Shown: piece by piece, positions 42,601 through 45,600 of the stretch
Numbering within the stretch: the first letter of the stretch is position 1
How the letters are laid out: every line of letters begins with the position of its first letter
Origin: Gammaproteobacteria bacterium
Lineage (GTDB): Bacteria; Pseudomonadota; Gammaproteobacteria; JAURND01
Reading direction: 5' to 3'
Length of the DNA: 64,000 nt
NCBI GenBank assembly: GCA_035546635.1
Contig: DASZWJ010000034.1
Location: 159,548-223,547 of the forward strand
Program-made: the position numbers

Positions 42601-45600
42601 GAAAACTGACCATGCAGGTCAGTGTAACCATGGGCGTCCTACTTTCCGGCAATTTTCTATGCAAGAGTTAGATAAATTGTTTTTGCGGGGCAGATAATTA
42701 AGACGGAGCCCCGTACTCAATCATTACCCCAAGCTGTTGCATATCTGCAAGCGCTTTTTGCGCACTATCCTTAGCGATGGCGCGGCAGGCCGGCAAAATA
42801 ACATGAAATTCAAAGCCTAAATTGTGGGCGCTGATCGCGCTATGATAGACACAGTAATCCAGTGCCAGACCTGCTATCCAGATGCGTTTAATGCCTAAGG
42901 TATGGAGTTTTTCAGGGAGTGGGGTTTGTGTGTCAGTGGTGATGCCTTCAAAAGCTGAATAAGCATCTTTATCGATCAGAAATGCTTTATTGATGATGAT
43001 AGCATTTTCAGGAATCACAATATCTTTGTGGAATGCAGCGCCAAAGGTATTTTGCACGCAATGTTCCGGCCAAGGTCCGCCGCGTTCTTTAAAGCTGATA
43101 TGGTGTGGTGGATGCCAGTCACGAGAGATGATGATAGGAATAGATAATTGCTGAGCACTGACAATCCAGGCATTGACGATGGGAATGATGCGATCGCCTT
43201 CGGGCACAGCTAAAGCACCGCCTGGCATAAAATCGTTTTGGGGATCGACGATTAATAGGGCATCTCCTGGTTGTAGCATGTTTTTCTTACCTGAGTTGTT
43301 TAAGTACGAAATTCTTCAAGGGAATTCCCTTCGGTCACAGTATAGGTATTTCCACAAATCCTTCTCCCACAAAGGGGAGAAGGATTTGTGGAAATACCTA
43401 TGGGTCACAGACGGGAGAGGGAGCTCGCCTATGCCGCTAGAGAAGAAGACAGAAAGTCATTAAGCATTTCCTGCAAGGGCTTCTCCAGGTGGTATGTAAT
43501 CTAACCCGAGACTTGCAGCAACTGCAGGATGGGTGACCTTCCCTTTGTAAATATTAAGACCGTTTAACAGATTGGGATTTTCGTTTAAAGCAATTTTTAC
43601 CCCTTTATTCGCCAGCGTAATGATAAAAGGTAAAGTGGCGTTATTTAAGGCGAAGGTAGAAGTGCGTGGAACTGCCCCTGGCATATTGGTAACACAGTAA
43701 TGCACCACACCATCTAGCACGAAAGTGGGGTTGTCATGTGTGGTGGGATGGGAGGTTTCAAAGCAACCACCTTGGTCAATCGCCACATCGACGATGACTG
43801 AACCGGGATGCATTTTGCTGAGCATGGATCGGGTTAGCAGTTTAGGTGCGGTAGCGCCTGGCACTAATACTGCGCCAATGACTAAATCTGCATGCAGAAC
43901 ATATTGTTGTATCGCAGCGCGGGTGGCAAAAATAGTGGATATTTTAGAGCCAAACTGGAAATCCAGTTCTTGCAGGCGTTGTAGAGATCTATCTAGTACG
44001 GTGACGCGTGCTTCTTGTCCCATCGCCATGCGTGCGGCGTTAGTCCCGACCACTCCGCCGCCAAGGACAACGACATTAGCCGGTTCAACGCCAGGCACAC
44101 CACCTAATAGCACTCCACGACCGCCGCGCATTTTTTCTAGTGCTTGGGCGCCTGCTTGAATGGCAAGACGGCCGGCAACTTCGCTCATCGGTGACAGTAA
44201 GGGTAAACCTCCGCGTGCATCAGTGACAGTTTCATAGGCGATGGCGATGCATTTGGTTTTGATTAAACTATTGGCGAGTTCGGAGTCTGCAGCTAAGTGT
44301 AAATAGGTAAATAGAATCTGTTCTTCGCGTAGCCATTGGCATTCTATGGGTTGCGGTTCTTTGACTTTGACGATCATGTCAGCGTTGGAGAAGATTTCTT
44401 GCGCGGAACTGACGATTTCGGCGCCTGCGGTTTCATAGTCTGTGTCGTGACACTCAATGCCTTCGCCAGCACCTTTTTCAACGATGACCTTATGGCCTTG
44501 GCTGACTACTTCATGCACACTGTTGGGTGCCATGCCTACTCTGAATTCACCTTTTTTTATTTCTTTGGGTATGCCGATTAACATGTATAGCTCCTTAAGG
44601 ATTAAAAATGTCTGCAATAGTTAGTTGTTGGCGCGAAATGCAAAAGCGTCGTCCCGGCATGGATGCCGGGATCTAGGTCGCAGGAAAGCGAAACTTTAAC
44701 TCCCCTGTCAGCTGGATCTCAGCTTCCTGCCGGGACGACGTGCATTTTTTTTGAGTTTCGTGCCAGCAACTAGTTATGACAACGCCTTCTCCAGCTCAGG
44801 TAATATTTGAAATAAATCTCCTACCAATCCAAAGTCCGCCACTTGAAAAATGGGGGCATCCGGGTCTTTGTTAATGGCGACGATGACTTTGCTGTCTTTC
44901 ATGCCGGCTAAATGTTGTATGGCGCCGGAGATGCCAATGGCGATGTAGAGTTCGGGTGCAACAACTTTTCCGGTTTGGCCAACTTGCCAGTCGTTGGGGG
45001 CGAATCCTGCATCTACTGCGGCGCGTGAAGCGCCTATGCTGGCATTGAGGCGGTCGGCGATGGCATTGAGGAGTTTAAAATTTTCCGCATTTTGCAAGCC
45101 GCGGCCGCCTGAGATGACTACTCGAGCTGCAGTCAATTCGGGTCGTTCTTGAGCGCTTTGCTTCAATGATAGCCATTGGCTACTTTTGTTCTCAATCACT
45201 GTGGTGATAGCGGTGATGGGGGCGGTATTGGTCCCAATAGTGGCTGGCGCAAATGTAGTGGTACGGATAGTCAGTACTTTGATCGTGTCTTGGCTTTGCA
45301 CAGTAGCAAGGGCGTTGCCGGCATAAATGGGGCGTATAAAAGTATCGGCATTGATGATGCGTACCACGTCTGAAATCTGTGCGACATCTAATAATGCGGC
45401 AACACGTGGCAGGATATTTTTGCCGAAGGCGGTAGCAGCAGCGAGGATATAGTTAAAATTTTGGGCTTGCGTTACGATTAATGCGGCTAAATTTTCTGCC
45501 AGGCCATGTGCATATACGGCATTGTCTGCGACTAAAACTTGGGTAATTCCGGTTATTTTGGTGGCTTGTTCAGCTACTTGTGTGCACTGGTGTCCGGCAA

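What the first reader, a model, noticed from the sequence alone, without database searches (positions are those of the whole stretch)
43319..43423. Nested insertion: a 61-bp perfect-palindrome mini-element sits inside a family-B repeat, flanked by an 8-bp direct duplication
The string gattcccttcggtcacagacgggaga is contiguous in the family-B copy at 24847-24877. Here it is split after ggtcacag by tataggtatttccacaaatccttctccc-acaaag-gggagaaggatttgtggaaatacctatg, which has a 27-bp perfect stem. The string resumes with a second ggtcacag. A duplicated 8-mer flanking a palindromic insert is the signature of a target-site duplication. It implies recent transposition of a hairpin mini-element, perhaps mobilised in trans like IS200/IS605-type or RPE-type elements. 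The insert's core (ccttctcccacaaaggggagaagg) is itself a family-B hairpin.
Basis: seen in the sequence. Interest (0 to 1): 0.75.

Follow-up and report, generated by a model that had tools for sequence, protein, structure and literature searches.

The report
Tiny hairpin insertion inside a repeat
A 62-base hairpin-forming DNA segment, flanked by a duplicated 8-base string, interrupts a short repeat between two genes of an uncultured bacterium; it looks like a one-off insertion of a miniature transposon-like element, an ordinary kind of event in a genome crowded with such repeats.

Summary
At 43341-43402 a 62-nt segment (27-nt perfect arms, 6-nt loop) is bracketed by two copies of GGTCACAG. Removing the segment plus one 8-mer restores a 36-nt module that is contiguous at 24843-24878 (34/36 identical).

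The best reading is a nested insertion of a very small foldback, MITE-like element with an 8-bp target-site duplication. It lies in a repeat-built, lineage-specific 180-nt spacer between ald and pncA. In the closest relative these two genes overlap by 4 nt.

The proposed mobilisation by IS200/IS605-type or RPE-type elements is not supported. Those families make no duplication, and no transposase of any type was found among the window ORFs examined.

"Recent transposition of a repeated mini-element" is also unsupported.
- The arm is unique in about 72 kb of this genome.
- It is absent from the species-representative genome, JGI metagenome and viral collections.
- k=31 assemblies from at least three sequencing runs cross it without breaking, although they break at neighbouring repeats.

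It therefore behaves as single-copy and fixed. One anomaly remains: the similarity between the flanks extends 8/13 beyond the 8-mer. That keeps alive a rival in which the 8-mer is a shared tail of homologous repeat units.

Interest is low to moderate. This is a new member of a known kind.

The parts
43280..43459 (-). 180-nt spacer between ald (43460-44584, - strand) and pncA/nicotinamidase (42698-43279, - strand). It is lineage-specific and built from repeat modules.
   Evidence: ORFs and Pfam. In the closest relative, L013, ald and pncA overlap by ATGA with no spacer.
43317..43340 (+). Left part of the interrupted 36-nt 'family-B'/W module (CAAGGGAATTCCCTTCGGTCACAG). It contains the 14-nt perfect palindrome AAGGGAATTCCCTT (43318-43331).
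   Evidence: 23/24 identical to 24843-24866 (D12, 44).
43333..43340 (+). Direct repeat copy 1, GGTCACAG (proposed target-site duplication).
43341..43402 (.). 62-nt inserted foldback element: T + 27-nt arm + ACAAAG + 27-nt arm + G.
   Evidence: I1: 27 nt, 100%. The DNA fold is -35.9 kcal/mol, z = -10. It is unique in the window.
43360..43383 (.). Core hairpin CCTTCTCCC-ACAAAG-GGGAGAAGG at the centre of the insert. The same hairpin occurs at 11161-11183, 17543-17567, 17641-17666 and 48714-48736, and as the outer stem at 24828/24869.
43373..43373 (.). Loop position that carries the only SNP (ACAAAG to ACAAGG) between the window and an 11,574-nt contig from run SRR12170517.
43403..43410 (+). Direct repeat copy 2, GGTCACAG.
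43411..43440 (+). Right part of the interrupted module (ACGGGAGAGGGA), continuing into a truncated U-type repeat unit (GGGAGAGGGAG..CGCCTATGCC).
   Evidence: 16/16 match of GGTCACAGACGGGAGA to 24859-24874. 11-mer and 10-mer matches to the U units at 11159-11169 and 11245-11254. Vp against U2 gives P = 0.003.
24843..24878 (+). Uninterrupted reference copy of the 36-nt module. It lies inside an X-type palindromic element, 54-89 nt upstream of the pncB start codon (24789, - strand).

Best explanation
A very small non-autonomous foldback element is inserted into a pre-existing copy of a 36-nt dispersed repeat module. The element is 62 bp and consists of two identical 27-bp terminal inverted repeats that meet at a 6-nt loop. 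The insertion went through a staggered 8-bp cut, and repair of that cut duplicated GGTCACAG. That is how DDE-type transposases move MITEs, so this is the inferred mechanism.

The event sits at the top of a stack of insertions. These turned an ancestrally overlapping ald-pncA gene junction into a 180-nt repeat-built spacer. In this genome the element now behaves as single-copy and fixed. That fits either a cut-and-paste element at copy number one or the only survivor of an old family.

Shown: the insertion geometry, the perfect arms, the 8-bp repeat, the lineage-specific spacer and the uniqueness in all accessible data. Inferred: the staggered-cut transposase mechanism, the direction of the event (insertion here rather than loss elsewhere) and any effect on ald-pncA expression. 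On the transcribed strand the 27-bp RNA hairpin would be a plausible RNase III or processing site, but it is not a canonical terminator.
For: - Removing 43341-43410 restores colinearity with 24843-24878 at 34/36 identity.
- The 8-mer repeat abuts both ends of the inverted repeat to within 1 nt.
- The arms are 27/27 complementary.
- The repeat stops sharply. The bases immediately outside the 8-mers differ, C against G upstream and T against A downstream.
- The spacer is absent in the nearest relative, where ald and pncA overlap, so this site has accumulated insertions.
- The window and its relatives are crowded with palindromic MITE-like elements.
- Published MITE criteria are terminal inverted repeats of about 4-30 bp, flanking direct repeats in young copies and length under 500 bp. 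QMITE2 of Coxiella has 7-9 bp direct repeats, 23-29 bp terminal inverted repeats and a REP-like centre (PMC10969869, PMC5896051).
- Copy numbers as low as 1 per genome are reported for MITEAba12 (PMC10969869).
Against: - No second copy exists anywhere accessible.
- k=31 assemblies cross the element, which argues that it is single-copy.
- No transposase and no IS with matching ends was found in the window.
- No empty-site allele was seen.
- The 13 nt upstream of the two 8-mers are 8/13 identical (P about 0.003-0.007, post hoc). A pure target duplication does not predict this.
- Other palindromes in the window that share the same centre show no clean flanking repeats. This rests on my own inspection of the sequences.
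- With only two copies of the module, the direction of the event cannot be proven.
Confidence: 0.6

Rival explanations
1. There was no transposition duplication. GGTCACAG(AC) is the native tail of homologous repeat units, which run head GGGAGARGG to tail CACAGAC/CACAA. Such units occur in tandem and inverted arrays, as in REP clusters and BIMEs. On this reading the locus is W' - inverted V core - V - V'. The perfect palindrome arose by inverted duplication or arm-to-arm conversion of one unit.
For: - The direct repeat extends imperfectly: GGGAATTCCCTTCGGTCACAG against GGAAATACCTATGGGTCACAG is 16/21 identical, with 8/13 outside the 8-mer and P about 0.005.
- Tail-to-head junctions recur: CACAGAC|GGGAGA at 24862 and 43406, and CCCACAA|GGGGAGAGG in the tandem U units at 11176-11259.
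- Head-to-head unit pairs generate the same 'core hairpin' at 11161-11183.
Against: - It does not explain why the perfect palindrome ends within 1 nt of the 8-mer on both sides.
- It does not explain why excising exactly insert plus one 8-mer restores the module.
- The V arm has no significant similarity to U or X units beyond the 9-10 nt head.
- No microhomology supports an inverted template switch at the left junction (inspection).
Confidence: 0.17
2. The long form is ancestral. The contiguous copy at 24843-24878 would then be the derived state, made by slipped-strand deletion between the two 8-mers. Precise excision of a palindrome is favoured by hairpin formation.
For: - Only two copies of the module are available, so polarity is undetermined.
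- By established knowledge, palindromes flanked by direct repeats are classic substrates for replication-slippage deletion, as in precise excision of Tn5 and Tn10.
Against: - It still needs an earlier event to create the 8-bp repeats around a palindrome, so it changes the timing rather than the nature of the event.
- The palindrome arms are perfect and unique, which fits a late addition at one site better than an ancestral component of a dispersed family.
Confidence: 0.1
3. Single-strand (HUH/Y1) mobilisation. On this reading the element is a REPIN-like or IS200/IS605-derived hairpin moved by a TnpA(Y1) or RAYT enzyme.
For: - It has a hairpin-only architecture and a REP-like centre.
- GTAG-type REP hairpins exist elsewhere in the window, for example CCGTAGGCC-ATAA-GGCCTACGG at 23271-23292.
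- REPINs are doublets that form long hairpins (PMC3116915).
Against: - By established knowledge these systems do not generate target duplications, yet an exact 8-bp one is present.
- There is no GTAG or CGTC tag inside the 62 nt (sequence; tags as defined in PMC3733652).
- It is single-copy rather than highly iterated.
- No Y1_Tnp hit was found among the window ORFs examined.
Confidence: 0.04
4. It is a selected structural or regulatory element rather than mobile DNA. The hairpin would be kept perfect by selection as an RNA processing, stability or attenuation signal between ald and pncA. The 36-nt module would be a shared cis-element of the NAD-salvage genes pncA and pncB.
For: - Both copies of the module lie in sense orientation 39-68 nt upstream of the pncA and pncB start codons.
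- The spacer RNA folds to -75.2 kcal/mol, z = -7.5.
- The arms are invariant in all assemblies, while the loop carries the only SNP in 11.5 kb.
Against: - The motif is absent upstream of pncA and pncB in both relatives, and those junctions have no spacer at all in the L013/L018 genome.
- There is no promoter-like or terminator-like site.
- No Rfam family reaches its threshold.
- 34/36 identity is far higher than operators usually show.
- It does not explain the 8-bp duplication.
Confidence: 0.06

Closest known systems
QMITE2 of Coxiella burnetii (Wachter et al. 2018, PMC5896051; review PMC10969869)
   Same: - The host is a related gammaproteobacterial lineage; the nearest named homologues of window proteins are from Coxiellaceae.
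- It is intergenic or 3'-UTR in location.
- Terminal inverted repeats are 23-29 bp, against 27 bp here.
- Variable flanking direct repeats are 7-9 (up to 11) bp, against 8 bp here.
- A REP-like palindrome sits at the centre. Truncated copies look like bare REPs, just as the core hairpin here also occurs alone.
   Different: - QMITE2 is 150-190 bp with a 113-145 bp core and about 78 copies. This element is 62 bp with essentially no core and appears single-copy.
- The QMITE2 centre is a GTAG REP that serves as an IS1111 target. No GTAG tag is present here.
- Sequence homology could not be tested, because no QMITE2 sequence was available to the tools.
Generic prokaryotic MITEs mobilised in trans by DDE transposases (for example MITEAba12, Correia, Chunjie)
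   Same: Terminal inverted repeats, a target-site duplication, no coding capacity, an intergenic location and a stable hairpin transcript.
   Different: - It lies at the extreme small end of the size range.
- The whole element is one perfect palindrome.
- No family of copies and no parent IS has been identified.
- The conserved part shared with other palindromes in the window is the centre, not the termini.
REP / BIME / REPIN systems with RAYT transposases (PMC3116915, PMC3733652)
   Same: - Short extragenic palindromes occur in tandem and inverted clusters.
- Inverted doublets form long hairpins.
- REPs are known targets for insertion of other elements.
   Different: - REPINs are highly iterated, carry GTAG or CGTC tags and are not associated with target duplications.
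- Here there is an exact 8-bp duplication, no tag and a single copy.
Small dispersed repeats (SDR 'nanoelements') of Nostoc (Elhai et al. 2008, Genome Res 18:1484; recalled from memory, paper not readable here)
   Same: Very small hairpin-forming repeats are found nested inside one another and inside other repeats.
   Different: - They are cyanobacterial, 21-27 nt long and highly iterated.
- As far as I recall they are not characterised by 8-bp target duplications.
- This comparison was not tested here.
IS200/IS605 family and derived palindrome-associated elements; Rickettsia palindromic elements
   Same: Hairpin-rich small elements.
   Different: - IS200/IS605 elements make no target duplication, lack terminal inverted repeats and insert 3' of a specific tetra- or pentanucleotide.
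- RPEs are 100-150 bp, often lie in-frame inside genes and make no duplication.
- An 8-bp duplication is present here.

Membership tests
MITE (DDE-mobilised miniature inverted-repeat element) | Terminal inverted repeats (about 4-30 bp) | tested here: met
   Arms are 27 nt and 100% complementary, reaching to within 1 nt of the duplication. The criterion is from PMC10969869.
MITE (DDE-mobilised miniature inverted-repeat element) | Flanking direct repeat (target-site duplication) of host sequence | tested here: met
   GGTCACAG occurs at 43333-43340 and 43403-43410. The same string occurs once in the uninterrupted copy at 24859-24866.
MITE (DDE-mobilised miniature inverted-repeat element) | Small (<500 bp) and non-coding | tested here: met
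   The insert is 62 nt. Only a spurious 96-aa ORF crosses the spacer.
MITE (DDE-mobilised miniature inverted-repeat element) | Several dispersed copies with different flanks | tested here: inconclusive
   None was found in 64 kb plus 8.3 kb of this genome, nor in GTDB representatives, JGI metagenomes, viral contigs or plasmids. k=31 contigs cross the element. The rest of the MAG could not be scanned.
MITE (DDE-mobilised miniature inverted-repeat element) | Cognate autonomous IS or transposase with matching ends | tested here: inconclusive
   No transposase domain was found among the window ORFs examined.
IS200/IS605-type (Y1 HUH) element or derivative | Insertion without target-site duplication, 3' of a fixed short target | tested here: not met
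   An exact 8-bp duplication flanks the insert.
IS200/IS605-type (Y1 HUH) element or derivative | Distinct subterminal imperfect hairpins at the left and right ends, no terminal inverted repeats | tested here: not met
   The element is a single end-to-end perfect inverted repeat.
IS200/IS605-type (Y1 HUH) element or derivative | TnpA(Y1) or TnpB gene in the genome | tested here: inconclusive
   None was found in the window. The whole genome was not searchable.
REP / REPIN with RAYT | GTAG or CGTC tag at one end of the palindrome | tested here: not met
   GTAG, CTAC, CGTC and GACG are all absent from 43341-43402 (sequence). Tags are defined in PMC3733652.
REP / REPIN with RAYT | High copy number (tens to hundreds per genome) | tested here: inconclusive
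   The element is unique in all accessible sequence. The core hairpin alone is repeated, with 9 half-sites in the window.
Rickettsia palindromic elements (RPE) | 100-150 bp elements, frequently inserted in-frame within genes of Rickettsia | tested here: not met
   The insert is 62 nt, intergenic, and in a gammaproteobacterial MAG.
QMITE2 (Coxiella) | 7-9 bp direct repeats and 23-29 bp terminal inverted repeats | tested here: met
   The direct repeat is 8 bp and the inverted repeat is 27 bp, against the figures in PMC10969869 and PMC5896051.
QMITE2 (Coxiella) | 113-145 bp core containing a GTAG REP; sequence homology to QMITE2 | tested here: not met
   The core is only the 6-nt loop, or 24 nt if the common hairpin is counted, with no GTAG. 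Homology itself was not testable, because no QMITE2 sequence was available.

The most novel reading that the evidence does not exclude
The window's palindromes form a class defined by a conserved centre rather than conserved termini. The centre is two GGGAGARGG 'heads' facing each other across an ACAAG loop; the arms are unrelated (U, V and X arms). The 62-nt element would be a freshly made member of this class. One possible route is snap-back extension of an excised REP-like hairpin that copies its own flank. The member then integrated through an 8-bp staggered cut. That would make it a REPIN-like doublet moved by a duplication-generating mechanism, a combination not described for REP or REPIN elements.
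Probability: 0.08. Interest if true: 0.65.

Novelty: new member of a known kind. Interest (0 to 1): 0.3.

Why it matters
If the reading is right, this is one of the smallest bacterial foldback elements with a clean target-site duplication. It is also a dated layer in the stepwise conversion of a translationally coupled gene pair (ald-pncA) into two genes separated by a repeat-built, strongly structured spacer. That makes it a tidy example of how miniature repeats remodel operon junctions in a poorly sampled, Coxiella-related lineage. It does not open a new mechanism or settle an open question. Its value is as a marker locus for testing whether such mini-palindromes are still mobile.

Tried and rejected
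- Other copies, genome collection. I scanned genome contigs for YATAGGTATTTCCACAAAT. It gave 9 single-arm hits in unrelated Firmicutes, Bacteroidota and Alcaligenaceae, about the number expected by chance (my estimate is roughly 9). The source genome is not in that collection.
- Other copies, metagenomes. Scans of metagenome contigs for the 22-nt arm and for the intact 20-nt module junction both gave 0 hits.
- Other copies, viral contigs and plasmids. Viral contigs gave 2 single chance hits. BLAST against plasmids gave one 24-nt chance hit to the core.
- Strain comparison. All contigs that carry the exact pncA or ald protein have the same filled site, and no empty allele was seen. The next relatives are only 75-82% identical at protein level and have no comparable spacer.
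- Operator or riboswitch idea for the 36-nt module upstream of pncA and pncB. It is not conserved in relatives. Rfam shows only sub-threshold miRNA-like hairpin matches. No promoter or terminator pattern was found. I rejected this as the main explanation.
- Homology of the palindrome arm to U or X repeat units. It is not significant beyond the GGGAGAAGG head.
- In-situ template-switch origin. I rejected it because no template for the 18-nt outer arm exists anywhere in the window, and no junction microhomology was seen.
- Flanking repeats around other centre-sharing palindromes (11127-11260, 24823-24882, 48669-48759, 59427-59478). No clean ones were found (inspection).
- Elhai et al. 2008 could not be retrieved.
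- A look-up of the last window ORF failed.
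Full report
**1. The observation**

- Positions 43342-43368 and 43375-43401 are 27-nt arms with 100% complementarity around the loop ACAAAG (I1).
- The octamer GGTCACAG lies immediately outside at 43333-43340 and 43403-43410. One unpaired base, T at 43341 and G at 43402, separates each copy from the stem.
- The 26-mer GATTCCCTTCGGTCACAGACGGGAGA is contiguous only at 24849-24874.
- The full shared module is 36 nt: CAAGGGRATTCCCTTCGGTCACAGACGGGAGARGGA. 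It is 34/36 identical once 43341-43410 is removed.
- The insert is 62 nt rather than 61. Its loop is not self-complementary.

Chance is excluded.
- The arm pattern never occurs in shuffles.
- GGTCACAG occurs three times on the + strand against 0.74 expected, always in this module.
- An exact 8-mer repeat at exact adjacency has a probability of about 1.5e-5.

**2. Provenance and reality**

The window is part of contig CAYLQX010000027.1 (275 kb) of MAG GCA_964386165.1, labelled "Gammaproteobacteria bacterium". The nearest named homologues of its proteins are from Coxiellaceae.

Independent Logan assemblies from runs SRR12170509, -511 and -517 carry the identical spacer. A further contig carrying the same protein was not shown by the tool.

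Over 11,574 nt the SRR12170517 contig differs from the window at a single position. That position is 43373, inside the hairpin loop (ACAAAG to ACAAGG). The structure is therefore real and fixed in the sampled populations.

**3. Context**

The site lies in a 180-nt spacer (43280-43459) between ald (43460-44584, - strand) and the nicotinamidase gene pncA (42698-43279, - strand).

In the closest available relative (pncA 75% identical; ENA ERZ25039590 contig_63216, locus L013) ald and pncA overlap by ATGA, with no spacer. The whole spacer is therefore lineage-specific inserted DNA.

The spacer is built from modules found elsewhere in the window.
- The 36-nt module, here called W. It includes a 14-nt perfect palindrome, AAGGGAATTCCCTT.
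- A truncated U unit (GGGAGAGGGAG..CGCCTATGCC). It matches the U units at 11127-11260.
- The 62-nt insert.

The window holds many palindromic repeat families.
- U units at 11127-11260 and about 17490-17700.
- X elements at 24823-24900 and 48669-48759.
- A family of about 150 nt at 13293, 23248, 35198 and 61742.
- MITEs at 37021-37156 and 44620-44775.

Both relatives are similarly crowded.

**4. Copy number**

The arm is unique in the window and in 8.3 kb beyond its right end.
- A scan of one genome per species gave only 9 single-arm hits in unrelated taxa, about the chance expectation. It also showed that the source genome is not in that collection.
- JGI metagenomes gave nothing, either for the arm or for the intact module.
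- Viral contigs and plasmids gave only chance hits.

There is an indirect but useful test. The Logan contigs (k=31 graphs) end at window positions 1068, 11190, 37145, 44620 and 48718.
- 1068 falls in a tRNA and 11190 in a U unit.
- 37145 falls in a MITE terminal repeat and 44620 at a MITE edge.
- 48718 falls in the core hairpin of an X element.
- The contigs nevertheless run straight through 43319-43423 in every run examined.

I infer from this that a second copy sharing 31-mers elsewhere in the genome would have broken them. The palindrome therefore behaves as single-copy.

**5. Mobilising genes**

No transposase, Y1, TnpB or RAYT domain was detected in the gene calls returned with the loci or in the 30 window ORFs scanned against Pfam. 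The ORFs at 3135-6596, 6756-7352, 14558-16576 and 54247-54927 have no Pfam match. The rest of the genome could not be searched.

**6. Mechanism**

The geometry is module-left, 8-mer, inverted-repeat element, 8-mer, module-right, against an uninterrupted module with one 8-mer. That is the classic signature of insertion through a staggered cut with repair-generated duplication. It is how DDE transposases move ISs and MITEs (criteria in PMC10969869).

The dimensions are close to those of QMITE2 of Coxiella burnetii, which has 7-9 bp direct repeats, 23-29 bp terminal inverted repeats and a REP-like centre (PMC5896051, PMC10969869). The difference is that the core here is almost absent.

IS200/IS605-type and RAYT (HUH) mechanisms make no duplication and do not use full terminal inverted repeats (established knowledge; REPIN background in PMC3116915). 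RPEs are larger and make no duplication.

I commit to the following, with confidence about 0.6: a single nested insertion of a 62-bp foldback MITE-like element with an 8-bp target-site duplication, now single-copy.

**7. What does not fit, and the rivals**

The similarity between the two flanks extends beyond the octamer. GGGAATTCCCTTC against GGAAATACCTATG is 8/13 identical (D1), with P about 0.003-0.007 in shuffles, post hoc.

Tail-to-head junctions recur: CACAGAC|GGGAGA, and CCCACAA|GGGGAGAGG in the tandem U units. This allows a rival in which GGTCACAG is the native tail of homologous units, and the palindrome is an inverted duplication of one unit (confidence about 0.17).

Against that rival:
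- The perfect palindrome stops within 1 nt of the octamer on both sides.
- Excision of exactly insert plus one octamer restores the module.
- The arm shows no significant similarity to U or X beyond the 9-10 nt head.
- No template for the outer arm exists in the window.

With only two module copies the polarity is unproven. The short copy could be a slippage deletion of a long form. That still needs an original duplication.

A functional reading was also tested. Both module copies sit 39-68 nt upstream, in sense orientation, of pncA and pncB, the two NAD-salvage genes of the window.
- The motif is absent upstream of these genes in both relatives.
- There is no promoter or terminator pattern.
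- No Rfam family passes its threshold.

On the transcribed strand the spacer RNA folds to -75.2 kcal/mol (z = -7.5), with no U-tract after the hairpin. Any role such as RNase III processing is inference only.

**8. An oddity worth recording**

At least four palindromes in the window share the same centre, CCYTCTCCC-ACAAG/CTTGT-GGGAGARGG, but have unrelated arms. Ordinary MITE families conserve the termini instead.

The simplest account is that all unit types begin with the same GGGAGARGG head, so any head-to-head pair produces the "core hairpin". A more novel account is a centre-defined class of foldback elements made by snap-back extension and integrated with a staggered cut. It is not excluded, but it has little support (probability about 0.08).

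**9. Verdict**

This is a new member of a known kind, a MITE-like foldback inserted into REP-like repeats. Its interest is low to moderate (0.3). The decisive analyses, a scan of the full MAG and the reads for further copies and for an empty-site allele, are simple but were outside the reach of the tools.

Noticed in passing
window 24843-24878 and 43317-43422: The only two copies of the 36-nt module lie in sense orientation just upstream of the two NAD-salvage genes of the window. These are pncB (start codon at 24789) and pncA (start codon at 43279). The motif is absent upstream of these genes in two relatives, so this is probably coincidence or recent co-option.
   Followed up: partly
window 43373 (L002 position 5346): The single nucleotide difference between an 11,574-nt contig from run SRR12170517 and the window falls in the 6-nt loop of the palindrome. 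The chance of that is about 5e-4. It suggests a mutational hot spot at an extruded hairpin, or a sequencing error specific to the inverted repeat.
   Followed up: partly
window 43280-43459 vs L013 9990-10010; window 24790-24909 vs L018 3940-4001: Two gene junctions are overlapping or abutting in the relative: ald/pncA overlap by ATGA, and the ffh stop sits next to the pncB start. In this genome repeat-built spacers of 180 and 120 nt split them. The pncA N-terminus and the ald C-terminus are shortened by 3 and 2 codons.
   Followed up: partly
window 11127-11260, 24823-24900, 43342-43401, 48669-48759: These palindromes share one centre (CCYTCTCCC-ACAAG-GGGAGARGG) but have unrelated arms. At 11176-11259 the right arm is tandemly duplicated as a 42-nt unit.
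   Followed up: partly
window 37021-37156; L017 9480-9625: A MITE with terminal repeats TGTCATTCCCGCGAAGGCGGGAACCCAT is shared with the closer relative (pncB 82% identical). The ATTCCC-N8-GGGAA core recalls the Neisseria dRS3 repeats (from memory). Logan contigs break here.
   Followed up: no
window 44620-44775; L013 8684-8806: A MITE between ald and etfA has arms containing CGTCGTCCCGGCATGGATGCCGGGA. A related element with 38-nt perfect arms sits at the same junction in the relative. A Logan contig ends exactly at its left edge.
   Followed up: no
window 13293-13450, 23248-23400, 35198-35352, 61742-61881: A palindromic element of about 150 nt (CCCCCTTTGAAAAAGGGGG ends) occurs in four copies. 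It contains GTAG-type REP hairpins, for example CCGTAGGCC-ATAA-GGCCTACGG at 23271-23292. This hints that a RAYT may exist elsewhere in the genome.
   Followed up: no
window 46652-47164 and the adjacent 68-aa ORF (L001 6116-6689): A PIN-domain toxin gene with a small overlapping partner ORF, VapBC-like, sits between argH and etfB. That junction has no such genes in the relative L013.
   Followed up: no
window 3135-6596, 14558-16576: Two large ORFs, of 1153 aa and 672 aa, have no Pfam match.
   Followed up: no
L017 9347-10000 and 11587-15048: The closer relative has a 654-nt ffh-pncB spacer made of nested MITEs. It also has several shortened gene calls (purA 332 aa, Band_7 fragments). This suggests either pseudogenisation or assembly errors in that genome.
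   Followed up: no
L013 7523-7633, 10610-10771, 12733-12891: The relative carries a MITE family of about 150 nt with 37-55 nt arms (94-100% complementary, two of the three perfect). Each arm contains the hairpin CCTTCCCCCGCAAGCGGGGGAAGG, an analogue of the core hairpin here. No obvious long flanking duplications are present.
   Followed up: partly
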